Source: Sphaeroforma arctica JP610
Lineage: Eukaryota
Direction: 5' to 3'
Assembly (NCBI RefSeq): GCF_001186125.1
Contig: NW_014040345.1
Span: 48,536 to 112,535 of the forward strand
DNA: 64,000 nucleotides
In this document: piece after piece, positions 1 to 57,909 of the stretch
Layout of the letters: each line of letters opens with the position of its first letter
Numbering within the stretch: position 1 is the first letter of the stretch
Translations under genes and position numbers: made by a program
The notes under the pieces: generated by a model
What the model was told of the DNA's origin: nothing
The model's input: only the letters and a program-made list of their open reading frames with translations
Databases searched by the model: none

Positions 1-2
1 TA

Positions 3-2374: not shown

Positions 2375-2439
2375 GATGTTGTATTTTTATTTTTACAATA
2401 AACATTTTTAATTCTATTTTCTTTTTTTATAGATATTTT

Positions 2440-3294: not shown

Positions 3295-3349
3295 TATTTA
3301 TTTATTAAAATCATCGTATGCAAAGTCAAACACTAATGAAAAAGGAAAA

Positions 3350-5401
3350 TCAGTTTTTCGCGTCTACCGGCATATTGTCCGTCTTATCATCCAGTATCGC
3401 GTCGAGCGAGTTCTTCTGGGCCATGTGCTCAAAGAAGCCCGAGGCACACCCATCATGCACATAGTACTCCTGCGACTCAAGGCTTGCTGTGTACAGGCGG
3501 TACTTGACAAACTCGTTGCCGACCAGAATGTCATTCATGATGGTGGTCTCAATGATGCGCTCCTTCGTCACGTCGCCCCGGACGTACAGGTTCACCGCTA
3601 TGTGCTTGGCGTGGTCAATGACTGGGATCGCCATCTTAACCACGTAGCGCTCGTCCTCAAAGCGAAGCCGAAGTGGACTGGTCATGTTGAACGTCTCAAA
3701 GAAGGTGCGTATGCGTTTCCAGCTCACATGTGTCACAACCCGCTCCAAAATGGGTACCTGGTTGGCGTAGTGGATAAACTAGTGGGAGCTCAGGACCAGT
3801 GCGCACACAAAGGCCTTCTTGGACATGATCATGGTTAGCAGGGGGCCCGCCCGTGGACGGATTAGTTCCCAGGCCTCCAGCCACTTCTGGTTCATGGACG
3901 AGTTGGCGCTGCCATTTATGAGCACCGACATCACATTGCCCATCCCCATGCCGGACTTGTACGAGTGCGCGCGACTTGCATACGTGGCATCCAGCATCAG
4001 CATAATGGCCATATCCTTTAGGGTTTTACGTTGTTACCCGCCATAATGTCCTCGGCCCACATGTTGACCCTCTTGGACCTTGCTGTGACCACATCAGAGA
4101 GCTGGATGAACTTGAAGAGGCTGATGCAAAACTCAATGTCTTCCCCCAGCAGCTGTGCGGCCTGTGTGATGAGCTTGGGGCGCGGGGGCCCGTCCGTGTC
4201 TTTGCCACGGTTACACAGCTCCTCACTGGCCGGGCGGAGATCTAGTGTTGGAGGCCAGCATGTTGCACAGCATTGCATCGCGATTTAGGTACGGGATAAT
4301 GGCCTGCTTGGTGTTGTGTAGCATGATGATCCTGTTCTTGGTGCGCGTGAGCCCCACATGGTGGGTATTGGGCACCTTGAGCGGATCGGCGTCGCCTAAA
4401 CCCTAAAACCCCTAAAATCGGTCCTCGTCCTCGTCGTCCTCGTTGCGGACTGTCATGTCGTCGGACGGCACGTCAATGGGAAACTTAAAGTCTGGTGACC
4501 GCACCAGGTAGCTGATAAAGGTGGAGATGGGCGAGGGCCGGGGGCTGTTGTGCTTGAACGAATGGGCTGTGTGTCGGTCACTGCCGTTGTAGACGCAGCG
4601 CAGCTGCAATGGTTAGCTTGAGGTCCCTGTAGAGGTCCTGCTCGGGGTACGTGGCGTCGCCGTACACAACGTACTCGGGCAACTTGGTGTTGCCAGTCCC
4701 GGTTATAACGTTGGGGCTCTGGGTACTGGTGTTGATGAACTTGCACACGCCGTCTGGGACCCGAAATCTCGTTGAGAGCATGAGGTGGGTCCAGGGCTCG
4801 TTAAAGTACAGCTCGGGCTGGCAAAAGTACGTGTCTGAGGCCCCAGTTGATGGTCTGCAGCGAGTCGCCCACCAGAACCTTCTGGGTGTGCCCGGTCTGG
4901 CCACCGGCAACGGAGCGTAGGGCGTAAAAGTACAGGGGGGAGAGGTCCTGGGCCTCGTCAACAATGACCACGTCGTAGTGGATGTCGAGGGGGTCCTCAA
5001 TAGCCACCATGAGCTGGAGGTCAGTGACAACCGAATACAGCGAGTGGAAGATATGGACGTCCACCGCAAGCCGCCGCCGCCCTCTTGCGCGTGTCCGTTT
5101 TGAGCCACGATGAGTAGGCTAGAATGAGGATCCTTTTTCCTATGGCCTCGCGACTGAGGCGGTCAACGATGGCCAGCATGGTGAAGGTCTTGCCCGCACC
5201 GGCACAGGCCATGAGGGTGACTTTGTCGCCGCGGGCAACGGCATCTATGGCCATCTGCTGCTCGGCGGTCGGGGCTCGGAGGCCGTGTCCGTGGGGTGTG
5301 GGTTGGTGGGAGGGTGCGGGTGTGCGTGTGAGGTTGGGTCGGGGGGCAAGTGTGATGGGTGTGTTATCCACGGGCATGACTGGTTGAGTAGCAATCAACA
5401 T
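3350..5401 (-). pseudogene. SF1 (UvrD/REP-like) helicase, multiply frameshifted
   Basis: Walker A ACAGAGKT, ILAYS, FHS, Walker B IVDEAQD, motif III VGDSLQTI, LSTRFR. Motif VI-like HHVGLTRTKN read at ~4335-4375. Downstream fragments (4018..4278, 3779..4012, 3350..3748) are inferred to be its C-terminal extension. Confidence 0.85.
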
Positions 5402-5536
5402 GGTTGTGTGCTGTAGCTGTGTGTTGTTTGTAATGTAGATGTGCACATGTAAACTGAATTGTGGGCCTTGCAAACACGCATGTATATTGAAAATTCAATT
5501 ATTCATTTTATTTTTATATTTTTGAATGCTCATAGA

Positions 5537-6920
5537 CTAGGACTGGCTGATCGACCCTTGGACGATTTTTGGTTTGTTTTGGAGTTTCTCGTCCAGCAGC
5601 CCATGGTAGTATACCTCGTAGTTCCCGCGCTGCATATCCGCATACGTCACCTTGGCCACATACTCTGTGTTGGGCTTGGTCTTGTCTGGGCGCAGCTTGA
5701 CAAACTCAAACTGCCCAGCCTCGTACCTATACTCGGCAATGCAGTCCTTCGTAAACCGCGCGTGGAACGGCACCCGCTTGTCTTCAAATGGCACCAGGCC
5801 ATCGCGGGTCCCAACTATCAGCACAGAGTGCTTCTCCCTATCGGGCAGCGCCTCCACTGGCCTCACCCGAAAGTCTATAGACTGCAGCTTCTGTGGCTTG
5901 AACTTGATCACCCCGCCGGCGTACACGCTCGCCAGCTTGAAGCACACCCCGTCGTGCACTGCGAGGTCCAGCCCCCCAAACAGCTCCCTGTACATGCCCC
6001 CTGGGTATGTCTGGATGATCTGCAGCCTGTACTTGTCCACGGCCACGGTACCGTCGGGACCCAGCATCGTCTGCAGCATTGCGCGGCGGGCCGCAAAGGG
6101 CTTCTCAATCCACACCTCATTGTGCACCATCACCAGGTCCAGCACGTGCACAACGTCTCCACACACCTCGCAGTCCAGCACCGTGGCCCTGCTAGGCCTA
6201 CGAACCGCTGTGACGCCTCGCCAATGGGCACCACCTCGCCCGTGATGTACACCAAGTACGCGAGGTCACCACACCACCAGCAGGGCGCGCGACCCGTCGT
6301 ACTTGTACATGACCACTGAGTCGGGGGCAATGGGGGTTGTTGGCAACAGCGTGCCCGCCTGTGCGATGGGGAAAGTCAGCTTGCCCATGATGCGCATCGC
6401 CAACAGCTCACCGTAGATGGTCTGTGACCACACACGGTCCGGGATCAGCACCTCGCGTACAAACGTATTGACGCTGGGCACAAACTCGTCGTCCTGGAAC
6501 CCAAACTCGGACATTGCAACGCCGCCCTCGAGCTCAATCTCTATCATGTACATCTTGAACCCCGCCGTCATGGTATCCACAAACTCGACGGTGTACGTCG
6601 CCGGCCCCGCGGACAGCTTGACACCTGAAAAATTGGTGGTGGTCTTGATGCGACTCACACCGACAAGTTCATCCTCTCCAACTGATTCACTGGGGGTCTT
6701 TGATGAGACGTAGTACGCCCAGTGGGCAAACCTAAACAGCGCAAGTGTGCGCTTGCACTCCCAGACTGTGTTGTTGTCGTCAAACGACGTCACTGAGCGC
6801 AGCCCATCTTTAGAACCATTGTGCATCGTCTGCGTGAGCCGCTTCTCGTACACGGGTGGCCCATTGAGATGGCGCATGCGATACATGCACACGGGCCTCA
6901 ATCTCAATTTTCTCGGACAT
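5537..6920 (-). pseudogene. mRNA capping enzyme: TTM-type RNA triphosphatase + guanylyltransferase, frameshifted
   Basis: Start MSEKIEIEAR (6920; ExExR) and YMIEIELE (triphosphate-tunnel motifs). GTase motifs I KYDG, III LDCE, IIIa VLDL, IV HDGVCF, V KFKP..SIDF and VI RPDK..PN spread over three frames. Confidence 0.88.
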
Positions 6921-7009
6921 GGCGGTTGCGTTAATCTTTTTTTGTTGTTGCATTTGTATATACATATATACGTGTATACAAATGATAGCTTTTCGTTTTT
7001 TTTCTTCTT

Positions 7010-7710
7010 CTATACAAGCGTGGTCTCAAGGTTGTTGGTACTGTATCCACACTGCACGGTAAACGACAGGGGGTACGCGGTGTTGTACTCGGCCACCGTC
7101 ATGGGCTTGTGGGCTGCCTGTCCTGGCGTATGACCCCAGAAGAAAGGGAAGAATACATAGAACGGGAATATGGTAATGTGCGAAAATATGCTGTACAGTA
7201 CATGGTCAAACATTAGCGGCCCAGTCCTCTCAAATGGATGAGCCGTAGGGCACCCCCAGAAGAACATAGGTTGCAGCTTCAGCAGCGTGTAGGTGATCAG
7301 GTTGCCGCGCGAGCTCCCAATCACACTATTTGCGAGCCCCCGGGCATTCTCCTTCTCTTGTCCTACAAAAGGCCTGTGCGGTTGCACGCTGTAATGATGG
7401 ACCCAAAGTCCTTGCCCAGATCCACCATGTCGCTGTCAATGTAGATGCCGCCATACTTGTACAAGATCTCAAGCCGCGCAACGTCTGCCTTACCACAGTA
7501 CTGTGGTTCAGCGTCAAATACTGCACTGTTCTCCGTTAGCACACTGCGGATATTGTTGTTGTCCCAGAGCATGTACTCGAACCCGTTTGCCGCACACCAG
7601 GTCCTAAACGTCGCCATCCACCCAAGCACAGCTGCTGGTGCCTCTTTTCCATGTTGCACACGGGCATTTTGTGCCAGCCCGTTGATGCGGTCCACAAGGT
7701 CCGAATGCAT
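7010..7710 (-). pseudogene. GT32 / DXD-motif glycosyltransferase, one frameshift near 7370
   Basis: ADVARLEILYKYGGIYIDSD signature (7363..7710), continuing into LANSVIGS in 7010..7387. Confidence 0.85.
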
Positions 7711-7751
7711 TTTTTTTTTGTGATTTATTGAATGTTCTATTTTATTTTATT

Positions 7752-8481
7752 TTAAAATGAGTACCGTTTATTCTTCTTATTATCCATGACCATAAAGGCT
7801 ACTACACCCAATACGACCAACACAGCAACTCCAACACCCCCAATAAGAAGCCAGTTTGTCTCTGGCTCCTCTTCTTCCTCCACTGAGGCAACTGCAATTG
7901 CTTCCACCACTTCGCCACTGACACCCTCGTCGTCCTCCTCCTCCTCAACAACCTCTTCCTCTACTACCTCTTCTGTTGCAACCGTGTTGTTGGCGATAAA
8001 GGCGTTCAGACCACTTCCACTGGTCACAATCCTGAACCGGAATTTGTCCACAACGACACCACCCGTAATATCGTCTGGTACAAACGTCTGGTTAGAATCC
8101 TTGGTCGCAAATTTCACGCCGTCGTCCGTCTTTATTCGGACGACGGACTCATTTGTATCACTGGACACTGGGGTCACTGTGAAGACGGTTTTCGTTGAGC
8201 TATCCGATGACACAACCACAATCCCCTGCTGAAAGTATATATACCCACCGTTGATACTCATGGTGTACTTGTTGGGCTTGTCACTGACAGGGTCGAACCG
8301 TATGTCGACTCCATTGGTACCGTACCCCAGACGACCCCAGACGCTGGGGTGTTGCCGAGAGTGAACTGACGTTCATGGCACCCTTGTTCAGCTGTAGATC
8401 GATGCGGCCCACGGCTTTATCCAACACGCTGAGTTGCTTCTCAAGACCCGTGTTGAGTAGGGCATAGTCTATCGTGCTCAT
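7752..8481 (-). pseudogene. Membrane protein with acidic stalk and C-terminal TM helix; probably one gene split into 8281..8481 and 7752..8261
   Basis: E/V-rich acidic tract, hydrophobic WLLIGGVGVAVLVVLGVVAFMVM, basic tail. The fusion of the two ORFs is inferred. Confidence 0.55.
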
Positions 8482-8606
8482 GACGGTTTACACACAGATG
8501 GTTTATATAGACTTGGAAAAAATGGGTTTTTTATTAAATAGATTAAAAATTCGAACAGACCTTGCAAGTTTTTGTTTTTTTTCTTCAAGTTCTAAACGGC
8601 TAATGT

Positions 8607-8822
8607 ATGAATAAAATGAACAAAAAATCCGCAAAGCGTAGCACCAAGGTCATCCAAAGGGAGATTGATGACCGCGTAATCGAGATCCAGGCGCCAACGT
8701 CCTCCATCAACTGGTCACTCGTGTTTGCACTCGCTGTCCTGGGGCTCTCTTCGATCCTCGCCATGGTTGCGTATACCAGGCGAATCCCAAATATCAACAG
8801 TCAAAAATCACGCCCATCGTAA
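8607..8822 (+). CDS. Small single-TM hypothetical viral protein (71 aa)
   Basis: ATG after AT-rich spacer; one hydrophobic segment WSLVFALAVLGLSSILAMVAY. Confidence 0.45.
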   Translation: MNKMNKKSAKRSTKVIQREIDDRVIEIQAPTSSINWSLVFALAVLGLSSILAMVAYTRRIPNINSQKSRPS

Positions 8823-10247
8823 AAGCTCGACGTTATGTTTTGGATTATACCTCATGTAGTGAGATTCCCAGAAAGAGTGAGACCCAAGCTTAAAAGACGA
8901 CGGGTACGGCTTGGCCCTGTAGTAAAACAGCCGATTCCTCCAGTTGTTGCCGTAAACATTGCGATCTCCAACGAGGGCCATGAATGGAGTCGCAGTGACA
9001 ATATTGAAGATTTCGATGAACAGTTTTTTAGATGGCACAAAGCTAAAGAACTCATCGTAGAGTCGATCGCGTTCGGATACTGGGTCCGTACCCATCGTGA
9101 TGATGGCATTCATAGATTTGCGCACCTCTGGTGTCACATTCGTATACTGCTGCCCACACAGAAGTATAAAGATCGAGTAGTGGCGAGAGTTGTTGAATAC
9201 TGCCGATAGCTTGTTAAGCTGCGAGCGGTAGCCACTAATATCGTCCATTACCATGGCCATGTTGCTGCGGGTGTGTAACTCACCACCAATATGATTTTCC
9301 CGCTTAACAACATTATACTGCTTCTGGGTATTTGCGACGCTCTGGATGGTTTCGGCCGTCACCTCATCTGTCACATAGTGGAACGCTTCTGGGATGATGG
9401 GGGCCCAATCGTTAGATACAGCGGACTTATTCCCGGTAAACAGCACTGTAGAGTCAAACATGCCCCGCTTTTCATACAGCAGCGACTTTAAATTGTCGAG
9501 TTGTGGGTCACCGTGTCGTCGGCGAAGCAGTAAAGGCCGTCTATAGACACCTCCACCCCGACATACGGCTCCGCAGCAGAGATGTTCTTAGTCACACGAA
9601 CATATCCACCAATGCCACTGTCTGGTGCACGGGCATACTGAATAGTGCCGTCCGAACACGTTTTACAGGCATAGCCGTCGTGGTAGCTGAGAACGGTGGA
9701 TGTTGTGGACTCTCATGGTTGCGTGATTGATACGACAATGAATAAACGTTGTCGTCAGCACATCAAACGTTGAAGGATCAAGTCGGCTGTAGGCACGACA
9801 GTTGGATACCCTTCATACAACCCGTAGGTAGGTACATCGAGGTGTGAGAAGTACACTTTCCGCTGTGCACACGACAATCGACTCGGTTTTGACATTGTAG
9901 AGCACGAGCTTGTGGTCCCCCGTAACCACATATGGATCACTGTCAGCCTGGTGGATCGTGTACATCTGATCGATACCGCGGACCTTGTTGAGGACCCGGC
10001 GTGGGCGGATGTCAGGACACAGGAGCAGGTCCCCAACAACCACCTTGTCAATCCGTTGAAGAACCCCTGAGCACATCTTGACGAGAGTGTCGGGCGCCAT
10101 GCACTTACCAAGGCCACTGCGCCCACATACGAGGACCTTGGACCCGTCCATGGACTCTTCGTCACCCCGTTTCCAGGGACTAATACTGTCGGGATTCCAT
10201 TCTTTGAGATGAAGTTTGTCCAGTGTTGTATCGGTGGTTTTGGACAT
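8808..10247 (-). pseudogene. A32-like virion packaging ATPase interrupted by an intein
   Basis: N-extein KLHLKEWNPDSISP...VLVCGRSGLGK. C-extein S-T-I then (frameshift) KSLLYEKRGMFD. Walker B MVMDD, A32 motif NSRHYSIFILLCGQ, C-terminal LFYYRAK..FKLGSHSFW. Confidence 0.92.
9500..10103 (-). mobile_element. Mini-intein (Hint domain) in the Walker A of the A32 ATPase, internally degraded
   Basis: Block A CMAPDTLVKM begins right after GK (10103). Block B YVVTGDHKLVL. Blocks F/G YVGVEV..DGLYCFADDTVTHN end at 9500, followed by Ser+1. 604 nt, internal frameshift/stop, no LAGLIDADG seen. Confidence 0.92.
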
Positions 10248-10360
10248 CGTGTGTGTATGTGTGTCTTTTTGTTTCTGTTCCACCTCGACTATAACGTATG
10301 TTACACACCTAAACTTGGTTTTTTATATATTTTGCTTTTGAATATAATAAACTGTCAACT

Positions 10361-11041
10361 ATGGGGGGTAATATATCAAAGAGTTTTCGCGAGCAGACAA
10401 TGACCATGGTGAGCGATGTGTTTGTGTCCGCATCTACAGACATATCGAACCAGACAAGCAGCAACAACATCTCCCTGCAGACTATAATCTTTAATGGCAC
10501 GTATGGCGGCAACTTTACCTCGTCACAGACGTCAGACATTACCTCCAAGACGGTGCAGGTGGTTGTCAACAGCACGTCGAACGAGGTCACGAGCGCCATA
10601 GAGAACATGCTGATTGACTGGTTCGAGCAGAATCTGGATCAAACCCAGGATGGACTGACAACGTCCAAGAACAAGTCGGAAGTCGTGGACATTGTGAGGC
10701 AGTCCGTCCACTCCAACATTGACGCCGTCTTCAAGACCAGGGTCGACAACACACTAAAGTCTACCAACTCGTCCACACAGTCTTACAGTTTTGTGGGTAA
10801 GGTGGAGGGCGACTGCCAAATGGACCAGACGTCAATCATTGACTCCTTGTCTGAGCAGTTTGCCACGACACTTGTGCAGAATGTGCTGGACTTGCTGGGG
10901 GTCATCACAACCGACAAGGAGTCCACCCTGAACACGTCCCAGGAGAACACCGGCTCGTTTAGCACAACCATGCTTATCATGCTGGCCATTATTGCGGTTG
11001 CGATCCTGGCCATTGTCATTATATTTAAATTCAAGAAATAG
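10361..11041 (+). CDS. Myristoylated membrane protein (poxvirus L1R/F9L-like NCLDV family), intact 226 aa
   Basis: MGGNISKS N-myristoylation motif, S/T/N/Q-rich body, C-terminal TM (MLIMLAIIAVAILAIVIIF) plus KFKK; adjacent to A32. Confidence 0.75.
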   Translation: MGGNISKSFREQTMTMVSDVFVSASTDISNQTSSNNISLQTIIFNGTYGGNFTSSQTSDITSKTVQVVVNSTSNEVTSAIENMLIDWFEQNLDQTQDGLTTSKNKSEVVDIVRQSVHSNIDAVFKTRVDNTLKSTNSSTQSYSFVGKVEGDCQMDQTSIIDSLSEQFATTLVQNVLDLLGVITTDKESTLNTSQENTGSFSTTMLIMLAIIAVAILAIVIIFKFKK

Positions 11042-12648
11042 CTATTGTTTCATATAGATGTTGACGGTTTTCTGCACGTCTTGCATCATAGCCATAAGGC
11101 GTTTGTTCACATTATATATGTATCCAATCTGATCTGCGAGGTCAACATGAACGACCTGGAGGTCTGGGGTTGATTGCGATTTGGGTTGTGGGGTTGATTG
11201 CGATTTGGGTTGTGGGGTTGATTGCGATTTGGGTTGTGGGGTTGATTGCGATTTGGGTTGTGGGGTTGATTGCGATTTGGGTTGTGGGGTTGATTGCGAT
11301 TTGGGTTGTGGGGTTGGGGTGCTTTGTGATCCGACCTTGTCTGAACCTGATGTCTCACATTCATTACTCTTGCACCCCATGACGTTTGTCCCCCACATCC
11401 ATTCTGTCCATGTTTTTGGACGCTGCTCCCCAATAGTGACTGCGTGGAATAGTATGGTCTTGGTACGTAACGTAGTTAGAGGTATACTAGTGCTGGTGGT
11501 TTTGGCCTTCTTCGTCAGGGCGGAAATCTTTGCCCACAGCTCATGTAGACTCTCGTCGGCACGACTGGCTTTCAGGGCGTTCTTGATATCCCCCCTCTGC
11601 CCCATAATGAGTTCACACACATCCTTTGGAATCTCCTTGTGGTCCTTGAGATATGTCAACAGCTCATTTGCCTCATCGACCAACTCGCTACTCGTGGGTC
11701 TCTTGAGTGCCTTAATCACCTCTTGTGTACTTAATATAGAAGAAGGGAGAACTGAACTCTTCTTATCAGCCCTGTGCCGCTTTCTGTGCATTGTGACACT
11801 CTCAGCGCGGTCCCAGAGCTCAAGAGTTGTCCTGTCCATTTTCAGAATTTTTAGGTCGTTAATAATTTGGGCAATATCCTTCAGCGCCGTCTTCCTCTGG
11901 TTGTATGAACTGTCTGCATTTGTAATATCTCTAGCATCGTTGCGTAGCCTATTGTAGAACGCTTCAATCTGTGGATTCCCAACAGGCTCCGGGATATCCA
12001 TTTGTCCGTACGTCTTTAGATGGGCTTCCTCTGCTGTCGCACCACGCCATACCGGTTGAACCATGGTAATTTGTCCTTCTCAGCCTTCATCTTGGTAATC
12101 CACTATTCCAGAATACGCTGATCATTGTGAAATACCCGTTTAAAATAGCGGACTTCCGTTGTGTTCCCGCTAGGTTGTATGCGCTGGTTTGGTATATTAA
12201 CCAGGGACCATGCTTCGTGCAGGGTATCTGGAGCCTCATTGTCTCTCAACATCTTTAAGATGTGGGGCTTCTGGTTGTTCACATATGTTGCTATAGGTTA
12301 AGGTATCGACTCCATGCTGTCAAGGTACATTTTCAGCAGGCTGGCCCGATTAACAAGGTCCTGGAGAGAATACTCTAAATATTTTGCAATTGCCAGCGAC
12401 ATGTAAAATAATATCTTGTCTACAAGTTCGTTGTACGTCGCAGAGGTCTTCGCCCCATCGGAATCGTTCAGCTTTGCAAACAGCGATTCCCAATTCTTGA
12501 TCACCCGGGGGTCGTATTTGATCTTTTTGAGATCCGCGATAATGTCCTCCACCTTGGTGACCACCTCTTGTATTTGGTCAACTGGCAAAGACGCAACATA
12601 TGTGCTAATATCACGTGGTGCGTCTGACAAAATGATTTTTTTACTCAT
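11042..12648 (-). pseudogene. Orphan viral gene, tandem paralog A (disrupted)
   Basis: 12298..12648 + 11042..12064 align by eye to paralog B (MSKKIILSDAP/MSKNISLSDAP; PEPVGNPQIEAFYNR; DKKSSVLP). In-frame TAA after ESIP. Confidence 0.7.
11167..11310. repeat. 24-bp coding tandem repeat x6 (PQPKSQST on - strand)
   Basis: GGGTTGATTGCGATTTGGGTTGTG repeated six times. Confidence 0.95.
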
Positions 12649-12662
12649 TTTTTATTTATAGA

Positions 12663-14126
12663 TTAAAAAAAACTATGAATCTCTATGATCATGTCGTGTG
12701 CGTTGTTAATCCGAGCTGTGAGGTCGGAGAGGTCAGAAAGGTCGGCATGAATGGCCTGGAGGTCGTTATGGATGCCCTGGGTGTCTACTTGCGCGTTCTG
12801 TTCGGAGACCATGTTGCTGTCTGATGTGAATTCGTCTGGGCTTGATACCTCATACTCATCACTATTGTACACTGGGGGATTTGCATCCCATATCTTTTCT
12901 TTCCATGTTTGTGGCCGCTGCTCTTGAAAATTGACTGCGTGGTACAGTATGGTCTTGGCACGTAACAGTTTTTTTGGCCTACTAGTGCTGGTGGTGTTGG
13001 CTCTCTTCGTCATTGCGGTAATCTTTGCCCACAGCTCCTGCAGACTCGGGTCGGCTCGACTGGCATACAGGACGTCCTTGATATCCTCCCTCTGCACCAG
13101 AATGAGTTCATACACATCCTTTGGAATCTCGTAGTGTCCCTTGAGATATTTAAATAGCTCGCTTGCCTCTTCGAGCAACTCACTACTCGTGGGCCTCTCG
13201 AGAGCCTTAATCGCCTGTTGTGTACTGTATATCGCAAAGGGGAGCACTGAACTCTTCTTATCAACAGTGCACCGCTTTGTTGCCTTCGTTATACTCGCAG
13301 CGCGTTTCCACAGCTCAATAGTTATTGAGTCCAATTGCAGAGTCCTTAGGTCTTGGATAATTTTTGCAATATCCTTTATTGCCGACTTCCTCTGGTTGTA
13401 TGAATTGTCTGCATTGTAATATCTCTGGTGTCGTTGCGTACCCTATTGTAGAACGCTTCAATCTGTGGATTCCCAACAGGCTCCGGGTTGTTCAGTGTCT
13501 CGTACGTTTTCCTGTAGACGTTCTCCACCTTCGCCCCACTCCGAAATATATATCTGTTTATCCATGTCTCATTGTCCTTCTCGGCCTTCATCTTGGCAAT
13601 CCACTGTTCTAGGATCTGCTGATCATTTTCAAATACCCGTTTAAAATGGCGGGTTTCAGTCGTGTCCACACCAGGTTGTACGAGGTATCTAGGAATATCA
13701 ATCCGCGACCAGACGTCGCGCAAAACTGGTGGAACCGATGCGGGGCATGTTGTGATTCACATATATTGCTATAGGTTCAGGTATCGACTCCAGCGTGTCA
13801 AAGTACCTTTTCAGCAGGCTGGCCTGATTGACAAGGTCCTGAAGGGAATAATTTACCTGTTTCGCAATTTCTAGCGATGTGTAAAATAGTATCCTGTCTA
13901 CTTGTTTGTTGTATGCTGTGGAGGTATTAGTTCCATTGGAATCGTTCAGCTTCGCAAGCAGCGATTTCCAGTTCGTGATCACCCCGGAGCTGTATTTGAT
14001 CCTTTTGAGATCCGCGATAATGTCCTCCACCTTGGCGACCACCTCTCGCGATTGGTCGACTGGCAAAGACGCAACAGATGTACCAATAACACCTGGTGCA
14101 TCTGACAAACTGATATTTTTACTCAT
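12663..14126 (-). pseudogene. Orphan viral gene, tandem paralog B (disrupted)
   Basis: Fragments 13698..14126, 13376..13723 and 12663..13334 are collinear with paralog A. Confidence 0.7.
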
Positions 14127-14172
14127 TATTTTTAATTTTATTTTTATTCAGTCGTAAAAAATATATAAATCG

Positions 14173-15080
14173 CTATTTTAGTTTCTGCAGCAGCCGGAGA
14201 CTCATCAGCCGAAACCTTCGCGGGTACACCCGGTGCGTCATGGTGTTGCATCTATACAAGACGGCCTGCCCCTCGGCCGTCCCACCTACCACCAACCACC
14301 GCATCCCCGCTGGGATCTTGCTCGTACCTTCCAGTAGACTATCCCATCGCGCCAACTCAGCACAACGGGGCAGGAACTGGCCATAGAGGGGCACGAGGGT
14401 ACTGTCTGCCGCGCTAGGAGCCGCCGGGCCCATCATGACCAGGGCCTTCGCGAGATAGTCCTCGGGATCTACGGGCGTAAGGACCGTGGCCGAGCTCAGG
14501 ACCACAACCGGGGCACAGCCAAACATGTCTTTCGTGTAGTGGTCCATGCCCCTGGGTAGCTGGGTCTCGTCTGTGTACATCTGCTGCAGGAACTTGTTGT
14601 AGCGGCACACGACAAAGCGACAACCACCGGCCTTTACCGTCCCCCCGGTGACAACGTAGCACATGTTGGCCCACTGGTCCTTTGCAATCCCGTACGTGAG
14701 ATGCAACGCAGATGGTCTCAGGGGCGCGTCAATCTCGTTTGACAGCGCATAGTATAAGAAGGGGACAGTGTTCGGAGCCATGCGCAACCACGACACGGTC
14801 CCGGCAGTGGGGGGGGGGGGGGGGTGGTGGCGGCAGAGTCTCGTGTGCACAGTAACCGTGGTCGCTCGGTGCGCCCAGTGGGGGCAGGGTACTGGAGCCG
14901 CCCCCGTGTGGCTCGGGGGTTTTTAAAAGAAGCTCAGTGCCAGAGTCGTTGTCCCACTCCATGACCTCCGTGGCATGCTCTAGGGGTGGCATGGGGTTCA
15001 GCAGTGGCAGGGGTTTTAGGGTTTAGGTCATGGAGCTCGAGTTCTACGTCGAGGTTAAGATCAGTATTCAAGTCAAACAT
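14173..15080 (-). pseudogene. Hypothetical viral gene, frameshifted
   Basis: ATG at 15080 (MFDLNTDL) continuing through 14729..14992 and 14173..14850; breaks include a poly-G run near 14810; no domain recognised. Confidence 0.5.
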
Positions 15081-15506: not shown

Positions 15507-16062
15507 TGTTGCGCTCGTACTCTAAAGCAGTACGTATACTAAAAACGTACTCTTAATAGTACAAGGAACTTAAGTTTCCCAAATGGTTTTAAATGGTTTT
15601 ATTAATTAATACCTTTTCCATTTTACATATCAGATATTTGGACAAAGCCATTACAAGGCCCCAGTAAAATACCAAACATAAGGGTTGGTCTAGTTCTAAT
15701 AATAGAACTATGTTTACTTTCCAACTTTATTTATATCTGAATACTTCGGTAGCGAGATGGCTCAACCGAATATAGGTTTCTAGGGACTATTAGCGTAACC
15801 TAGTTGATTCTCCGATCAGCCAACCAGATGTGCCAGTCTGATGAAGGCTAAGTCGGTAATTCTTGATAAGTGGCAAGTTATTGGTTAAGACAATAACTAA
15901 GGACATCAAGAGTAAAAATAATTTCTAATAGAGCGACAACGAAACACTAAATAAAATTCCTTCGGTACTGAGAAGATTATATATAGGCAATGTCTCAGCC
16001 TCACAATCCGTTTATTTACTTTTATATTTTCACGATACTTAGAATTTACCTAAGGTATTAAT
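15507..16062 (+). repeat. 5' LTR (truncated, with internal deletions)
   Basis: Matches ~22703-23413 (e.g. GGAACTTAAGTTTCC, CCGATCAGCCAACCAGATGTGCCAGTCTGATGAAGGCTAAG, CACGATACTTAGAATTTACCTA) with substitutions and several indels. Confidence 0.88.
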
Positions 16063-16162
16063 TACTTAAACTACTTAAGCGTAAAGGTAGATTAACTACC
16101 ACAAAAATTTTCTTGTCCAAGCTAGTCCTTAAGAGACAAGCTAGTAGTCATAAATTAAGATT

Positions 16163-18367
16163 ATGACCAAGAAAGACAATAATCCTTCTAAGGAGCATAA
16201 AGCTGAAAAGAAGAAGATGGAGAGAGAAGCCGCCAACGCTACCGCAGCTACTGCTGCCGCAGAGGCAACCGCTGCCGAATCTGACAATAATAGTCAAAAG
16301 GACAATGCTTCAGATAAGGATGTAGCCACTCCGATTAAGGAGACTACTCCCACTGACAGAGCCCGAGGGCCAACTATTGTCTCAACTTCAAAGCTTGCAT
16401 TTACGAAGCCAAGAAGTCAGACAAGGGACACGTCACAAGACGCCCCAACCTATTCTTCTGACGAAACTCAGAATGGAAAGTCCCCAATTATAGGGGACAA
16501 GGACAAATCTCAGAAGGAACCTATTATGGAACCAGAAGAGGAGGCAAGCTCAAGTGGCAAACCCGAATTCACGTCCGAGACTACTAAGCCAATGCACATA
16601 AGTAAGTTAATTACTGAAAACGCTGATCTTAAGAATCAGTTAGCTACCATTATGAAAGACTTGACTGTCGAACATGTAAATCAATTATATAGATCAGGAA
16701 AACATGCACAGCACTTACGCGAGCATGTTTCCCCGGGCATTACTGAAGCCCTACAGAAGTGGACAGAACGTCGACAGGCAATTACGCCCGAAGAACGTAA
16801 AGACTCGAGCGCTACACCTGTGGCATATGAGCCAGATGTGCTCATCGTATCTATACCTTACGAGGTATTACCACCAGAAATTCAGGCTAATTACTCACCT
16901 GTTCTGACACCCGGCTGTGAGTCACCCGTCCTTGAGGGTATTATAGACCCAGAGGCAGGTAGAAATACTCCGCCACTTTTACCCAATTGGGATGACAATC
17001 GTCGGAAACTAGTTAAGACTGTGTATGTTATCCAGACGCATGAATCACCTAATATTATAATATCAACCACTATCCGAGGAACAGAACACCAAAAGGCCTC
17101 GACCATGGACTTTACAAGGGGTAATAAACACCCCCGTAAACGTGTTAACGAAATCGAATTTAATCGCTTCGATCGCACAGCACTACATCAACCCGCAGAG
17201 GATTTTCACTCTGACGAGGTGACCGAACTTAACAAATCGGTCGACGATTATACCATTAAAATGGAAATCGCCCACGATGCGCATCATGCTGATGATGTAG
17301 CATACTTTGCGAATATGACTGCGATTAAGCAAAAGCGCATTGATCAGTTACTTCAGGCCCAACGTGGACAAGACCACAGAGACAACCAGAAGTACAAGGG
17401 ACAGATCAGTCGACTTAAGTCGAATTGGGATGCCAACAGTAAGCAGGTCAAGTTTATAAAAAACCATGACCTCGACACGCTAACCCGTACGCTTAATGCG
17501 TTTACGGTCATGCTAGAGACGAATGATATCGCTCCCCAGCAATGGATCTCTACTTTAATGCAGACGTTTGACCCTACAGGTACAAGTTATTCGATCATAC
17601 AGCGACAACAACATGAGCTAGACACTTGTCGTGACTGGCCAGCTGTGTGTTGGTTGGTTACATCCTTGTTAAGTAAGGACATGCGTAGCCCAGGACTGAG
17701 TTCAATTTTAACTGAACCAGTTGAGAACACGCCCATTCAAAGTTATATTCTGAAGCTAGATGCTGACCTGAAACATTCAGATATAGCGAAGGACAAGGCA
17801 CAGCGATGGTACGAGTTCCTGGCTATGCCCGTGTTCTGTAAGAACATAGGGAATAACAACCGTGAGAGCCTGTACACCGAGTTGCGACGTAAACACGCGA
17901 CTGAGGCTCGAGACAGGGGACATGGAACAAAGTTTCATCTATCCCGACTTACGTGGGAACAGTTTTATGACACTGTATCCACCCTTTTCCCTGCACACCG
18001 AGTAACATCGAAGGGAAAAGTGGCTGTTAAGAAGCCGCGGGAGTACACCGATCAAGGATACGTATCCAGGCAGACCTCAAACGAGAAACACCAACATACA
18101 CGTGCTCGCGACCCCACTCTATCCACGGGACCCAATAAACGGGCACGCGCGGAGGCAAAGGACAAGGAACCTCCATTTAAAGAGATTAAGAAATGTTCCG
18201 ACGCACAGCGTGGGTATGACAGGTACCAATTGACCCATAACAGTTATTGGAATGGCAGGCATGCATCCGCCTGTACACACTTTCCTATTAAGTGCGACAA
18301 GTGTGAGAAGACCAATGGCTATCACACTAAGTCTTGTGACAAAAAGCCCAACATTAAGTTGGAGTGA
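16163..18367 (+). CDS. gag: Gag-like protein (734 aa)
   Basis: Long ORF after the 5' LTR; C-terminal Zn-knuckle-like CDKCEKTNGYHTKSC; directly upstream of the protease. Confidence 0.8.
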   Translation: MTKKDNNPSKEHKAEKKKMEREAANATAATAAAEATAAESDNNSQKDNASDKDVATPIKETTPTDRARGPTIVSTSKLAFTKPRSQTRDTSQDAPTYSSDETQNGKSPIIGDKDKSQKEPIMEPEEEASSSGKPEFTSETTKPMHISKLITENADLKNQLATIMKDLTVEHVNQLYRSGKHAQHLREHVSPGITEALQKWTERRQAITPEERKDSSATPVAYEPDVLIVSIPYEVLPPEIQANYSPVLTPGCESPVLEGIIDPEAGRNTPPLLPNWDDNRRKLVKTVYVIQTHESPNIIISTTIRGTEHQKASTMDFTRGNKHPRKRVNEIEFNRFDRTALHQPAEDFHSDEVTELNKSVDDYTIKMEIAHDAHHADDVAYFANMTAIKQKRIDQLLQAQRGQDHRDNQKYKGQISRLKSNWDANSKQVKFIKNHDLDTLTRTLNAFTVMLETNDIAPQQWISTLMQTFDPTGTSYSIIQRQQHELDTCRDWPAVCWLVTSLLSKDMRSPGLSSILTEPVENTPIQSYILKLDADLKHSDIAKDKAQRWYEFLAMPVFCKNIGNNNRESLYTELRRKHATEARDRGHGTKFHLSRLTWEQFYDTVSTLFPAHRVTSKGKVAVKKPREYTDQGYVSRQTSNEKHQHTRARDPTLSTGPNKRARAEAKDKEPPFKEIKKCSDAQRGYDRYQLTHNSYWNGRHASACTHFPIKCDKCEKTNGYHTKSCDKKPNIKLE

Positions 18368-21300
18368 AGGTACTACCAGGTACAATCGTTACACAGACAA
18401 TACAACGACTCTTCAGATGAGCGTGAAATAATCCCTGTATATCGCAATGGAAATAAAATCCTTGCGTTGATTGATCCTGGTTCAGAAATTTCATGTATAT
18501 CCGATCGCTTTGTATTAATGAAAGATATCGAAAGGGGAAAACAAACAACTCACCTCATTTTAGCTTATGATAAAACTGCTAAGTGTGATACCATGGCCAC
18601 AGATATTAAAATCTGCCTGGCCGATGATAGGAATATCACTACCCAAGCTGTGACAGTTAAGATGTCACAGGAGTACAACATTATAGTCGGAATGAGCGAT
18701 TTACTCACTCTAGGTATAACCGGAACGGGTCTACCAAATAACATAGATCCATTAAAGGATCAATCGGACGATAACTGTCTGAATCCATATAAGCCCCCGT
18801 CAGACACAGTCAAGGCATTAATACCTGACTTTGCGAACAAAATTATGGATCTGATTCTAATTAATAAGAAGATAAAGATCACAGATTGGGCAAAATTCCG
18901 CTTTAACGACAGATATGTCAGCCTTGACTTGACCAAGGTAGTCTTTACACAGTTAAAGTGTCCCTCAAGGAACTATGTATTCTGGAGACACGAGGCTGTG
19001 GTAAAAGAACAAGTTGAGAAATGGCTAGCAGATGGAGTGATAGAAATTAACTATCAACAGACGCGAGTTAACTTGGCGCTGCTAGCCGTAGACCAACATA
19101 ACTCTGACGGATCGTTTAAGAAAGTCAGAGTATATTTAGATATAAGTCCAATAAATAAATTGTTGCCGACTCATAGCTTTGACTTACCTCGTATTAACGA
19201 GCTACTGCGAAGGATGGAAGGTGCTACAGTATTTACAACTATAGACCTTACACAAGAATACCATCAAATGCAGGTATATGAACCACATCGTAAATACTTT
19301 AGTTTTACGTGGAAAGGTAAACAATACCGGTTCAGAGGTGCACCTTTCAGGTTACACTCTGTACCAGCATTCTTCCAACAAGTAATGGAAGAAATGTTTA
19401 CAGACATGCCTAACGTGCAAGTCTATATAGATGACATAGTCATCGTTTCTAAGACTAAGGGCGAACATGCCGAATTAGTCAGACGAGTCCTTAAGAGACT
19501 CAACGAGCAAAACCTCAAGATTAACGAGAAGAAATGCCACTTCGCAATGAGCGAAATACAGCTCTTAGACTACCATATATCTGGGGAAGGTATTAAAATC
19601 GACCCCGGTAAGGTAGCACACCTGTTAGATTGGCAAACACCAACTACAGGAAGAGATGTTAACAGCATGTGTGGGTTTGTAAACTTCTTTTCAGATGGAG
19701 TACCACACTTGGCTGAATACCTTAAACCTTTTGGACACTTAAGATGTCATAAAGGCAAACTAGGAGACTTGTGGACTAAAGAGTGTGATGACGCGTTTAA
19801 AGCGCTCAAACACGCAGTCCAACAACAGTTGTACAAGGACCAGTCGATGGCGTGCCGTTTGAAATAGCAACAGACGCCTCCGACTTAGACTTAGGAGAAG
19901 TATTATATCAGGTTATAGATGACAAACCTAGATATATACAATTCTTTAGTCGAGCAATGAATGTTTCACAGTTGAAATATCCAACTGTTAAAAAAGATCT
20001 ATTAGCCATAGTGGCAGCTCTGACACACTTCCGAGATTACTTAAACGGAACAGCATTTACGCTGATGTGTTATCAGAAATCTCTTCATTATATGAAAGAG
20101 ATGAACCCCGACTCACAATTACTGAGTCGCTGGCATGATACAATATCAAAATTTCATTTTGATATAAAACATCTGACAGGAATACATAATCATTTACCGG
20201 ATATGTTATCACGCTTTGTACCGGACTTTAATAAATCCGTACGTGAGTTACTAGCCACTGACTGGAAGTGTAATCCCAGGTGGTTTGAACTGGCTCAAAA
20301 GATATTTGGGCCACATACCATAGATATGTTTGCTGCACATCATAATGCACAACAATCGAATTACAGGACTTTAAATCATCCTTTGGGAGACGCTTTCAAA
20401 TAGACCTCTCCGAACACAATGCGTGGGCTAATCCACCATGGCAGTTAATTGCCCAGCAATTAAATTATGTTCATATACATAAAGCTGCCATCACGTTGTG
20501 TAGCCCATTACGGAGTAAAGATCCATGGCTCAATAAGTTAACAAGCATGATACAATGCGAGCCAATATATTTAGATAGGGAAGTAGATACCTTCCTATAT
20601 CAGGGTACCCGAGCCTTCCAGAAGACGCCTTGGAGACATACTATAATATGTCGTATAGGTCCCATTGGTACAACCAAATGGACCCCTTCTGAGACCTTCC
20701 TTAACAAGGTCAAAGAATCAGAGATTCCACTCTCTACCCAATTGAACGTTACGCAGTTCAAAGGCAACACAGCACTTGAAATCTGTGCACAAGAAATACA
20801 ATCTACTAATGACACTACTGTTAAGAAGCGTCAGTCTCTAGCTAGGACTCTGTTTAATAATATAAAGTCCAAGCCTGAGGTCTTTCAAACCTTATTTCCA
20901 AAGGGATTAATGAAAGACAATCCTGAAGCGTATACACATACAATGCGACTATTTAATAAGTCTGGTGTATCTAACGCACATGAGCGCACTTATGACACTC
21001 ATGCGAAAGAAGAACAGGAGTCTGGAAACACTACAGACTTAGAGACCACGCAAGTGGATTCTCATCACCCTACCTTTATTCTGGAGGAGCAGAAAGATGA
21101 AAACATTCTTGCCTGGCTGACGAAAAACCATAGGCTGAAGCACCAGAACGTAGTAGACGCACTTAAAGATGCTAAGCGAAATGGGATCGCGCACCCTAAG
21201 CTGGCAACTTTAGTTGACAGAGTATATCAGTCATGTACAGACTGTGATCTCAATCAAATCAAGCGCTATGGGTTCGCACCGCTTAAGAGTGTGACGGAAG

Positions 21301-22532
21301 ATGTTCCATGGCGCAGGGTCACCATTGATCTGGCTGACCTGCCCACGTCCGAGCACACAGGCGACCGTTACGTATGCCACTTTTTTGATGTGGCGTCACG
21401 GTTTAACTTGCTCTATCCATTAAAGGATAAGAATACGCAGACCGTGGCCGAATTATGTTGCCAAGTCTTTGCTGACCACGGGTGGCCAGGTATTATGTGC
21501 ACTGATAACGGTAGTGAGTTCTGCGATGACGTAATGGAATTGCTAGTACTCGTACCAGGCATATGCCATAAGAGAGGTGTGCCATATAAGCCGCAAACGC
21601 AAGGCGCGAATGAAACGCGCCATAGAAGACTTAAGTTCTTCTTGCGTACTACATTAACGGATGATGCAGATGATTAGTCATATCACCTTAACTGTATACA
21701 AACACAGATGAACGAGTGTGCTGATCCGGTTACAGGAACTACACCCGCTCACTATTTTCGTGGCAGATATAGTGAGTTACAAATCCCTTTTAACAAGGAC
21801 GAACATGATCACCATGAGTTACCATGGTTAGAGAAGGTACAACGTATTTATAACGTTGTATATCCTTGCTTGCGAGAATTACGCAATATAGCCCTATTAA
21901 AAAGGCAAAAGCGTTGGAACACTACCAAGAAGATACCAGAGTATCAGGTTGGTGACAGAGTTAAAATCCGTCAACGCAATTCCGATGCTACTGTATTAAC
22001 ATCTAAATGGATAGGTCCATATATAATCTCGGTAGCAGACACTAAAAGTGAAACGTACGAGGTAAATAACCCCGATGGTTCTAGTGCGCTTAATATGGGC
22101 ACAAGTCGTATCCCGACTACAGAGATTATACTCGCAAGAAGACATGACTCTAATGCCCCTCTTGATCGTTCTGAATTTAAAGACATTATATGGAGAACGG
22201 ATAAGGGAGGCTATACATACTATCGTAAATGCTTTATAGACGGTACAATAGCTGAGTTGACTTCAGATGCTTTCGATAATCAAGAGTATTTAAAAGCCTT
22301 TAATCGAAAATGGCGTAAATGCCTGCATAAGTCACAAGCTGAAAAAGATAGCATGTTTCCATCGTCTGAAGGCACAGAAGTTAAAACTTATCCGCCTACA
22401 TCATTTATCCCGAGCTTTCATGCTCATCCTTCATATGTGCTTAAGACATTGAAGCGTAAGAAACATCTAGTCGACCACCACGGACCTACCGGACCTAAGC
22501 CCAAAACTCACAGGGTAACCGAGAACGCTTAA
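18368..22532 (+). pseudogene. pol: Pol: protease, RT, RNase H, N6-adenine MTase, integrase
   Basis: PR ALIDPGSEISCI; RT FTTIDL and YIDD (19424-19435); RH IATDASD...DMLSR. INT HRLKH...CTDC, VTIDL, TDNGSEF, PQTQGANE, KWIGPY. Frameshifts near 19840 and 20400, in-frame TAG at 21675. Confidence 0.93.
20257..20660 (+). other. Dam-like (DIRS-type) DNA N6-adenine methyltransferase domain within pol
   Basis: DWKCNPRWF...FGPHTIDMFA (SAM-binding motif, 20320-20334)...DAFK, then after a 1-nt frameshift IDLSEHNAWANPPWQLI (catalytic NPPW 20430-20441)...ITLCSP....PWLNKL. Confidence 0.85.
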
Positions 22533-22668
22533 CTTCTCCGCTTGAGAAACATTAACTATATGTTAAGCTACTTAATGTTTCGACCCGTTTTTCCTTTCTC
22601 GCTTTTTGACCCATAATCAGCTTGAGTGAGCAACTTGCTTCTCATGGGTCTTAAAGCTGGGTGGGAGC

Positions 22669-23439
22669 TGTGTATTAAGCCGGGCTTCCACATTAGACTC
22701 TATGTTATAAACGTACTCTTAAGCAGTCCGTAAATTATAAACGTACTATTAATAGTACGAGGAACTTAAGTTTCCTAATATGGTTTTTAATGGTTTTATT
22801 AATTAATACCTTTTCCATTTTACATATCAGATATTTTAACGAGGCCATTAAAAGGCATCAGTAAAATACCAAACATAAAGAGTTGGTTTAGTTCTATTAA
22901 TAGAACTTTATTTACTTTCCAACTTTATTTATATCTGAATACTTCGTTAGCGAGATGGCTCAACCGAATATAGGTTTCTAGGGACTAATAACGTTACCTA
23001 GTTGATCCTCCGATCAGCCAACCAGATGTGCCAGTCTGATGAAGGCTAAGTCGGTAATTCTTCATAAGTGGCATGTTATTGGTTAAGGCAATAACTAAGG
23101 ACATCAAGAGTATTTTTATTTTTTTATTTATTTTTCTAAAGATAGGATTTTATGAGTTTCTCGGATTCGCCCCAATGAAAAATACCATGGTTTCTAATAG
23201 AGCGACAACGAAACACTAAATAAAATCCTTTCGGCGGAAACAGTACTGAGAGGATTATATATAGGCAATGTCTCAGCTTCACAATCCCTCAGAGTATTGC
23301 TGTTTTCACGAGGCATACCTAACTTTACTAAAAGTCTCATTTCGTTTATTTACTTTGATATTTTCACGATACTTAGAATTTACCTACGCGTTTATTTATT
23401 CTAAGGCGTTAATATCGCCTTGAGAAACCGAATCTTACA
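22669..23439 (+). repeat. 3' LTR
   Basis: Starts TG(TG)TA right after the PPT-like tract and ends ...TTACA; homologous to the 5' LTR. Exact ends inferred. Confidence 0.85.
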
Positions 23440-24630
23440 CTATTCTCGACGGAAATATCTATGGCACTAAGAATACAGTTTGGGACGAATGCATCAGGAA
23501 CATACTTATTTTTCGAGATGGTGAATTTGTTTATAATTCAACCATTCTTAACTATCAGTACGACCAAGAGAAAGCACAAACGCTTACCTCGTGCGGATCC
23601 CTTCACAAACCCGGAATACCCGCGCTTGTCAGAAGTAGAAGAAATTGCAACTTGGTTACAGGATTCATGGTATGCCGGGCTAGCCAGTGCAGATCCGACA
23701 ATCATTGTTTTATTTGATAATAATGATGATGATATTGATGAAGAGGATGATATAGAGGTATAATGTTCTATTTTAGCTTGTTTAGTTTTAATGAGCTTAT
23801 TTGAACTGATAAACATCTTGAATATTAAAAAAACATTAAAGTTATTCACACCCTACCTATACAGATTGATGACATTGACGGTATATTGGGTGAACTGATC
23901 GGAGACAATAACACATCTAACAGTGGAAGCACAAATGATAATGGTATCGACAATGATAATGACAATGTAATTTTTTTCTAAGTGTGAGTACTGGTGTGGC
24001 TAATACTGATGTGACTGGAGTTCAAAATACTTCAATTAACTCTCCATATCTGGGCATTGCGATGGTACATAGTGATCCAACTTCAGATAATACTCCAACT
24101 CCAGTTTTCTCACCTTACCTATACAGATTGATGACATTGACGGTATATTGGGTGAACTGATCGGAGACAATAACACATCTAACAGTGAAAGCATAAATGA
24201 TAATGGTATCGACAATGACAATGACAATGTAATTTTTTTTCTAAGTATAAGTACTGGTGTGGCTAGTACTGGTGTGACTGGAGTTCAAAGTACTCCAACT
24301 AACTCTGCATATCTGGGCAATACGATGGAACATAGTGGTCCAACTTCAGATAATACTCCCAACTCCAGTTGTCTCTGCTGCAAACAGTGTTGTAAAGTAG
24401 ACCTAACACAGTACCCGAACGCGTCGAAAGAACGGGGCGGGAACCATTGGAAGATGGGCTAGCACAAGGAATGTTTTTATTATTTTTTTACCTTATCACA
24501 AACACTACGCGCTCTAGCTGCACGCATACGCTACTTGCTAGTTATATTGAGGTTTGAATACGTGTTACCAGGAAGCCTTAATAATGACCCTATTGAAATG
24601 AGCTTTCGCATAGCTCGAGCAATGAGCTAG
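23440..24630 (+). mobile_element. P-element/THAP9-like transposase relic
   Basis: LFSTEISMAL...TYLFFEMVNLF...DPF...RL....TWL (23440-23670) and SQTLRAL..IRYLL...FEYVLPGSLNNDPIEMSFRIARAMS (~24495-24630) resemble the C-terminal catalytic region of P-type transposases. Confidence 0.55.
23854..24370. repeat. Tandem duplication of ~263 bp
   Basis: TACCTATACAGATTGATGACATTGACGGTATATTGGGTGAACTGATCGGAGAC starts at ~23854 and ~24116. Confidence 0.9.
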
Positions 24631-47727: not shown

Positions 47728-47775
<48 letters not shown>

Positions 47776-49417: not shown

Positions 49418-49487
<70 letters not shown>

Positions 49488-51580: not shown

Positions 51581-51627
<47 letters not shown>

Positions 51628-57329: not shown

Positions 57330-57474
57330 ATATTCGCGCCCACTTATTGCAGTACCCGTTTCATAGCTATGTCACTGTCAAAACCTTATTAAAGCTTAGC
57401 ACTAGTATTACCGAACCTTCAAGATGAATGCCACTTTTTCTCAATAATTTTTTTTTGAGGGGGGTGGGAGAAGG

Positions 57475-57864: not shown

Positions 57865-57909
<45 letters not shown>

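What the first reader, a model, noticed from the sequence alone, without database searches (positions are those of the whole stretch)
20257..20660. Gypsy LTR retrotransposon carrying a DIRS-type N6-adenine methyltransferase between RNase H and a DDE integrase
Seen: after RNase H, pol reads DWKCNPRWF..FGPHTIDMFA..DAFK and, across one frameshift that the ORF track splits, WANPPWQLI..ITLCSP..PWL. It then runs in frame into an HHCC/DDE integrase, and the element has direct LTRs. Established: a Dam-like MTase after RH is characteristic of DIRS tyrosine-recombinase retroelements, not of integrase-using Ty3/Gypsy elements. Inference: this is a chimeric lineage that could 6mA-mark its own cDNA or insertion site, or counter host silencing. 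I do not know whether it has been described.
Basis: partly seen in the sequence, partly recalled or inferred. Interest (0 to 1): 0.88.

Follow-up and report, generated by a model that had tools for sequence, protein, structure and literature searches.

The report
Broken gypsy retrotransposon with Dam-like methylase
This is a dead copy of a gypsy-type jumping gene that carries an adenine-methyltransferase-like domain between its RNase H and integrase; the design is real and intact in many relatives, but it was described in a 2026 preprint, likely in this same group of organisms, and what the domain methylates is still untested.

Summary
A Ty3/Gypsy-type LTR element (15516-23439) carries a Dam-like N6-adenine methyltransferase domain (20254-20720; DMFA and NPPW motifs) between RNase H and an HHCC/DDE integrase. 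It is not a nested DIRS fragment. Seventeen distinct relatives carry RT, Dam and integrase in one protein. The domain is as conserved as RT, and RT, Dam and integrase trees give the same closest kin. This copy is dead (two frameshifts, a stop in the integrase, truncated 5' LTR), but the family is abundant in its host. It is not new: bioRxiv 10.64898/2026.05.21.726589 (May 2026) describes DAM-LTR elements. The closest named relatives here are Sphaeroforma arctica and Abeoforma whisleri proteins, that paper's chromodomain-less ichthyosporean lineage. This scan has also noted such elements on other DNA (23 findings, at least 3 genomes). The mechanism is open. Self-marking with 6mA is the best guess, but the preprint's enzymes were inactive in E. 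coli. The closest solved fold of an intact relative is the RNA enzyme PCIF1, so an RNA or RNA:DNA substrate, or no catalysis, are live rivals.

The parts
15516..16052 (+). 5' LTR remnant; lacks both ends and three internal blocks present in the 3' LTR
   Evidence: 502 of 537 aligned bases identical to the 3' LTR; no target-site duplication found
16154..18367 (+). gag-like ORF, 737 aa stop to stop, Cys/His-rich end; its TGA is followed in frame by pol (natural read-through or lesion: not resolved)
   Evidence: no Pfam hit, so gag is inferred from position
18368..19867 (+). pol piece 1: aspartyl protease (weak) and reverse transcriptase (YIDD); frameshift near 19825
   Evidence: Pfam gag-asp_proteas E 0.024, RVT_1 E 1.2e-23; tblastn frame change against P0001/P0002
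19855..20154 (+). RNase H of Ty3/Gypsy type; two conserved acidic residues altered in this copy
   Evidence: Pfam RT_RNaseH E 9.1e-25; alignment
20254..20400 (+). Dam-like MTase domain, first half (DMFA at 20323-20334), ends at the frameshift near 20390
   Evidence: (56-69% identical to P0001/P0002)
20394..20720 (+). Dam-like MTase domain, second half, with the catalytic-type motif NPPW at 20430-20441
   Evidence: (67-69% identical to P0001/P0002)
20721..21128 (+). poorly conserved linker between MTase and integrase
   Evidence: 17-25% identity to relatives
21129..21677 (+). integrase: HHCC finger (21129-21245) and DDE core (about 21315-21620); in-frame TAG at 21675
   Evidence: Pfam rve E 9e-08
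21678..22532 (+). integrase C-terminal part, same frame, no chromodomain
   Evidence: 57% identical to P0001/P0002; no Chromo hit
22659..22667 (+). short purine-rich tract just before the 3' LTR (likely polypurine tract)
   Evidence: sequence; role inferred from position
22669..23439 (+). 3' LTR, TG...CA
   Evidence: sequence; end inferred from varied loose ends at 23439-23440 in family contigs; start inferred from TG behind the purine tract

Best explanation
This is a broken copy of an abundant Ty3/Gypsy LTR retrotransposon whose pol carries a DIRS-type adenine-methyltransferase domain between RNase H and integrase; in intact copies the domain is likely packaged with reverse transcriptase and would put N6-methyl marks on the element's own reverse-transcription intermediates, which the host's 6mA system would likely maintain after insertion to keep new copies transcribed. 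Shown here: the architecture, its conservation, its co-inheritance with RT and integrase, the MTase fold of an intact relative, and the decay of this copy (about 0.95). Inferred: capture from a DIRS element by an ancestor of this lineage, a likely ichthyosporean host, packaging with Pol, catalysis, and host maintenance (about 0.45; this is the preprint's model).
For: Single-protein RT-RH-Dam-INT in 21 of 165 fetched proteins, 17 after dropping cluster duplicates. Dam identity to P0001/P0002 is 56-69%, against RT 66-68% and linker 17-25%. NPP[WFY] is kept in 23 of 30 domains that cover the motif, and in 17 of 18 rows of the clade that holds the window. The window groups with P0001/P0002 in the RT (100/99), Dam (100/100) and integrase (100) trees, inside a larger clade with Abeoforma proteins. 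The model of relative P0007 has pLDDT 88-98 by blocks of ten over the domain and matches N6-adenine MTases. The preprint reports more 6mA and more expression on DAM-LTRs than on other LTRs in S. arctica and A. whisleri.
Against: The preprint's eukaryotic DAMs raised no 6mA in dam-deficient E. coli. Iyer et al. (PMC4738411) judge DIRS MTase domains likely inactive. P0001, one of the two closest intact relatives, has CPPW in place of NPPW. P0021 sits inside the clade without the domain, so it can be lost. The closest solved fold is the RNA enzyme PCIF1 (Z 10.6), ahead of T4 Dam (8.1) and E. coli Dam (8.0). The preprint's 6mA enrichment is a correlation: host AMT1 marks transcribed DNA anyway. 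No ApT or GATC bias in the element.
Confidence: 0.5

Rival explanations
1. The domain is a PCIF1-like enzyme that methylates RNA: the element's own transcript (cap-adjacent or internal adenosine) or its primer, protecting it or helping translation or packaging. The 6mA on inserted copies is then a by-product of transcription.
For: PCIF1/CAPAM is the top solved match of P0007's model in both searches (VIA-align Z 10.6, rmsd 2.7 over 129 residues; Foldseek ranks 1-2), and rRNA adenine MTases come next (Z 8.2-8.8). Iyer et al. place DIRS MTases in the PCIF1 clade. PCIF1 prefers ssRNA over hybrids over ssDNA over dsDNA (abstract of PMC9178792). This would explain the negative E. coli DNA assay.
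Against: By sequence the domain hits phage Dam (PF05869; phrog_111 DNA methyltransferase E 4.7e-14), and no PCIF1 family appeared in the Pfam scans. The fold ranking depends on what has been solved, and a shared fold shows no substrate. The model is of a relative 39-56% identical to the window's domain.
Confidence: 0.2
2. The domain is a non-catalytic nucleic-acid or cofactor binding module, kept for folding, packaging or targeting of Pol.
For: Negative heterologous assay; Iyer et al. predict inactivity; 7 of 30 domains alter the NPP motif, including P0001; the preprint says part of the prokaryotic catalytic and target-recognition regions is missing.
Against: NPP[WF] is kept in 17 of 18 rows of this clade across deep divergence, which fits selection on an active site; the matching Asn is required in PCIF1 (passage of PMC9178792).
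Confidence: 0.25
3. A DIRS fragment inserted by chance into one Gypsy copy, or two nested elements, with no functional chimera.
For: The domain straddles a frameshift and the copy is decayed. The AU test did not reject grouping the window's RT with the one DIRS RT (p 0.21).
Against: Seventeen distinct relatives have the same order in one frame; family contigs cover the domain in all 30 bins in three of four runs; the protease, Ty3-type RNase H, integrase and direct LTRs exclude DIRS; the three trees agree.
Confidence: 0.02

Closest known systems
Ichthyosporean DAM-LTR lineage (Fernandez-Moreno et al., bioRxiv 10.64898/2026.05.21.726589; whole main text read, supplements not seen)
   Same: Ty3/Gypsy organisation, DIRS-derived Dam domain, no chromodomain; closest named relatives are S. 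arctica (P0012, 73-83% identical over RT and integrase stretches) and A. whisleri proteins.
   Different: None found. This copy is broken. Whether this exact family is among their sequences could not be checked (supplements closed). Their main text does not mention PCIF1.
DIRS retrotransposons (Muszewska et al., PMC3783388, passages read)
   Same: Dam-like MT domain (PF05869) directly after RNase H; P0162 and P0163, DIRS-like by their domains, score 157 and 128 bits on the same profile.
   Different: DIRS lack protease and DDE integrase, use a tyrosine recombinase and have inverted terminal repeats; this element has a protease-like domain, an rve integrase and direct LTRs.
PCIF1/CAPAM cap adenosine N6-methyltransferase
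   Same: Closest solved fold of the intact relative's domain (Z 10.6, 19% identity); NPP-aromatic motif; same clade according to Iyer et al..
   Different: PCIF1 is a cellular enzyme with a WW domain; the match covers only the MTase core, and no WW domain was detected here.
Chromodomain-bearing DAM-LTRs (the preprint's Chlorophyta chromovirus-like clade, by architecture)
   Same: RT-RH-Dam-INT order; 6 of 25 scanned relatives have a chromodomain.
   Different: They fall outside the window's clade in the RT, Dam and integrase trees; the window has no chromodomain.

Membership tests
Ty3/Gypsy LTR retrotransposon | pol order protease-RT-RNase H-integrase | tested here: met
   the protease hit is weak in the window (E 0.024), clear in P0001 (E 1e-06)
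Ty3/Gypsy LTR retrotransposon | HHCC plus DDE integrase | tested here: met
   rve E 9e-08; HHCC and DDE residues
Ty3/Gypsy LTR retrotransposon | direct LTRs, TG...CA | tested here: met
   93.5% identical direct repeats; TG...CA on the 3' LTR only, the 5' LTR is truncated
Ty3/Gypsy LTR retrotransposon | RT of Ty3/Gypsy type | tested here: met
   best solved match of P0002 is Ty3 Gag-Pol, E 3.4e-71; RT nests among integrase-bearing elements; no named Gypsy reference was in the trees
Ty3/Gypsy LTR retrotransposon | target-site duplication and primer-binding site | tested here: inconclusive
   no duplication found, but both ends of the 5' LTR are missing in this copy
DIRS retrotransposon | no protease and no DDE integrase; inverted terminal repeats | tested here: not met
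   integrase, protease-like domain and direct LTRs are present; definition
DIRS retrotransposon | tyrosine recombinase ORF | tested here: not met
   no such Pfam hit in the five element ORFs, which fill the space between the LTRs
DIRS retrotransposon | RT groups with DIRS RTs | tested here: inconclusive
   best trees separate them (25% identity to P0162), but p-AU 0.21 with one long-branched DIRS row
Ichthyosporean DAM-LTR lineage | Dam domain in a Ty3/Gypsy pol, no chromodomain | tested here: met
Ichthyosporean DAM-LTR lineage | groups with Sphaeroforma, Abeoforma or Pirum DAM-LTRs | tested here: met
   clade with A. whisleri P0013/P0015 in the Dam and integrase trees and P0015 in the RT tree; S. 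arctica proteins are the closest named; the preprint's own sequence set was not available
Ichthyosporean DAM-LTR lineage | raised 6mA and expression on insertions | not testable with these tools
   no modification data; only contigs could be laid
Active N6-adenine methyltransferase | catalytic [DN]PP[YFW] motif (definition recalled; NPP triplet also) | tested here: met
   NPPW at 20430-20441; 23 of 30 domains
Active N6-adenine methyltransferase | class I MTase fold | tested here: met
   model of relative P0007, not of the broken window domain
Active N6-adenine methyltransferase | methyl transfer to DNA | not testable with these tools
   negative in E. coli for the preprint's representatives

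The most novel reading that the evidence does not exclude
The 'Dam' domain of DAM-LTR and DIRS elements is a PCIF1-type enzyme that methylates the element's own RNA or RNA:DNA intermediate inside the particle: a retrotransposon-encoded RNA adenosine writer rather than a DNA methylase.
Probability: 0.25. Interest if true: 0.6.

Novelty: already known. Interest (0 to 1): 0.2.

Why it matters
As a discovery it matters little: the kind of element and very likely this lineage are in a May 2026 preprint. The open question is the substrate. A mobile element that writes an activating mark on itself would be a new way to exploit host chromatin, and one that methylates its own RNA would be a new way to exploit RNA marks. 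The intact relatives found here (P0002, P0003, P0015) and the PCIF1-like fold point to the substrates worth assaying: capped RNA, RNA:DNA hybrids and ssDNA.

Tried and rejected
No whole genome is held, so intact genomic copies and a true dN/dS could not be examined. Codon positions of 32 variable places in the domain (from 40 of 48 rows shown): private to this copy 4/3/5, varying among other copies 4/5/11 for positions 1/2/3; at most a weak hint of selection. Runs: no RNA holder listed; the laid runs guessed to be RNA are contigs and show nothing on expression. Contig depth is no copy number. Viral contigs held no relative of the Dam half or of P0162; two metagenome loci had no Dam domain. Searches for DIRS references gave only P0162 and P0163, so direction of transfer was not tested. 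No sequence-level match of the MTase domain to solved structures was seen (top 60 shown). The Atlas did not place the host and did not answer for the Dam half. No ApT or GATC skew. No tRNA genes in the window. Tree rows left out: cluster duplicates, and domains covering too little of the profile; the 72-row RT tree is the quick tree, not the careful one. Papers: seven searches found no description of Dam in non-DIRS LTR elements before the 2026 preprint, apart from one loose sentence in PMC6338049 that lumps adenine and cytosine methylases of Gypsy and DIRS; most subscription journals are not in the library.

Full report
Observation. The sequence and ORF lists show an LTR element with a gag-like ORF (16154-18367), then pol in four pieces: protease-RT (18368-19867), RNase H plus the first half of the domain in question (19801-20403), its second half plus integrase (20346-21677), and the integrase tail (21678-22532). 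Pfam gives RVT_1 (E 1.2e-23), RT_RNaseH (9.1e-25), rve (9e-08) and a faint Dam hit on the first half (E 0.094, under the cut-off). The direct repeats are 502 of 537 aligned bases identical; the 3' LTR appears whole (22669-23439, TG...CA), the 5' LTR lacks both ends, and no target-site duplication was found. The copy has two frameshifts (near 19825 and 20390) and an in-frame stop in the integrase, so it cannot make Pol.

The domain is real. Read through with X at the break, it scores 145 bits on a profile of 27 other Dam domains built without the window, P0001 and P0002; the best of 500 shuffles scores 10.8. Of 25 relatives scanned, 21 hit Pfam Dam at E up to 0.001 and 18 pass the curated cut-off; P0001 and P0002, the two closest, stay just under it at 22.9 and 26.2 bits. 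An AlphaFold2 model of relative P0007 is confident over the domain and matches N6-adenine methyltransferases: PCIF1 Z 10.6 (rmsd 2.7, 129 residues), DIMT1/Erm/KsgA 8.2-8.8, T4 Dam 8.1, E. coli Dam 8.0 (Foldseek agrees).

It is part of the element, not a stray insert. Searches with the Dam-integrase ORF gave 32 Dam-positive proteins among 160. Among the 165 finally held, 21 have RT, Dam and integrase in one protein, 17 after dropping cluster duplicates. The domain is 56-69% identical to P0001/P0002, like RT (66-68%) and unlike the linker behind it (17-25%). The window groups with P0001 and P0002 in the RT, Dam and integrase trees, inside a larger chromodomain-less clade (RT 14 rows, 100/98; integrase 14 rows, 97; Dam 18 rows, 95/90, including the long-branched DIRS-like P0163). 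Chromodomain-bearing Dam elements fall elsewhere. RT-RH of P0002 matches Ty3 best among solved structures (E 3.4e-71). Against this, an AU test that forced the window's group together with the one DIRS RT was not rejected (p 0.21); one long DIRS branch is too little for that test. In the host's sequencing runs the family is abundant: 61,697 contig pieces of run X1 were laid on the element. All 30 bins across the domain are covered in three of four runs, 27 in the fourth, and contigs in all four runs differ in length from this copy at the break, so the frameshift is not shared by the whole family.

What is known. The search found Fernandez-Moreno et al., bioRxiv 10.64898/2026.05.21.726589; I read the whole main text, not the supplements, which may list this very family. 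They report Dam domains in non-DIRS LTR elements, at least four transfers from DIRS, and an ichthyosporean lineage (Pirum gemmata, Abeoforma whisleri, Sphaeroforma arctica) without chromodomains. The named relatives here are four S. arctica and two A. whisleri proteins; P0012 is 73-83% identical to the window's RT and integrase stretches, and a host gene of the window is held by EukProt, the collection that paper screened. The host is therefore likely Sphaeroforma or a close relative; this is inferred. The DIRS definition is from passages of PMC3783388. The scan's own notes list 23 similar findings in at least 3 other genomes, none by sequence likeness; they agree but add no independent support.

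Mechanism. Being part of Pol, the domain would be packaged with RT and integrase and meet the element's RNA, RNA:DNA hybrid and cDNA first (inference from LTR element biology). The preprint finds more 6mA and more expression on DAM-LTRs than on other LTRs in two ichthyosporeans and proposes that marks laid on reverse-transcription intermediates are maintained by host AMT1; but its enzymes gave no 6mA in E. coli. NPP[WF] is kept in 17 of 18 rows of this clade, which favours catalysis. Iyer et al. (PMC4738411, passages) place DIRS MTases in the PCIF1 clade and think them inactive; PCIF1 works best on ssRNA, then hybrids, ssDNA and dsDNA (PMC9178792, abstract and one passage). The preprint's main text does not mention PCIF1. 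My odds: self-marking of DNA or hybrid 0.45-0.5, inactive binder 0.25, RNA methylation 0.2, accident 0.02.

Verdict. A real, well-supported chimeric design, seen here in a dead copy, already described, probably in this lineage. Interest 0.2. The one thing worth taking forward is the substrate question.

Noticed in passing
window 1-15000: Intronless, GC-richer region that looks like an endogenous giant virus: family B DNA polymerase in pieces (Pfam E 1.2e-45; best viral-contig matches 33-40% identical, three of the top seven labelled GVMAG), a Pox_A32 ATPase (E 4.7e-06) and a helicase fragment. PMC11244446 reports no reliable ViralRecall hit in S. arctica, so if that is the host this stretch may be overlooked. 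The retroelement sits at its right edge.
   Followed up: partly
window 8808-10322 (-): The A32-like ATPase seems split: a P-loop-like stretch is followed at once by a Hint/intein domain (Hom_end_hint E 1.8e-10), then the reading frame breaks before the ATPase remainder.
   Followed up: partly
window 5537-7009 (-) and 10313-11041 (+): ORFs that by eye resemble a viral mRNA capping enzyme (KYDG motif) and a myristoylated membrane protein (starts MG); labels recalled, no Pfam or convincing PHROGs hit.
   Followed up: partly
window 11042-14147 (-): Two tandem, diverged copies of an unknown gene (82% over 300 bases); one has a 24-base repeat encoding QSTPQPKS units.
   Followed up: no
window 18365-18367: gag ends in TGA with pol following in the same frame: possible stop read-through, or a lesion of this copy.
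   Followed up: no
P0021; P0001: P0021 lies inside the Dam-bearing clade but lacks the domain (RH-to-integrase gap 107 aa against 271-449), a likely loss; P0001 has CPPW for NPPW.
   Followed up: partly
window 56700-60550, 38030-38570, 40180-40750, 52340-52780: Several minisatellite arrays (units of 29, 34/68, 37, 47, 76, 103 and about 164 bases).
   Followed up: no
window 40800-52100 and 61455-62999 (-): Host genes: intron-rich genes with TA/CA repeats in introns, and a single-exon sugar transporter (Sugar_tr E 4.7e-104) whose exact protein is held by NCBI and EukProt.
   Followed up: partly
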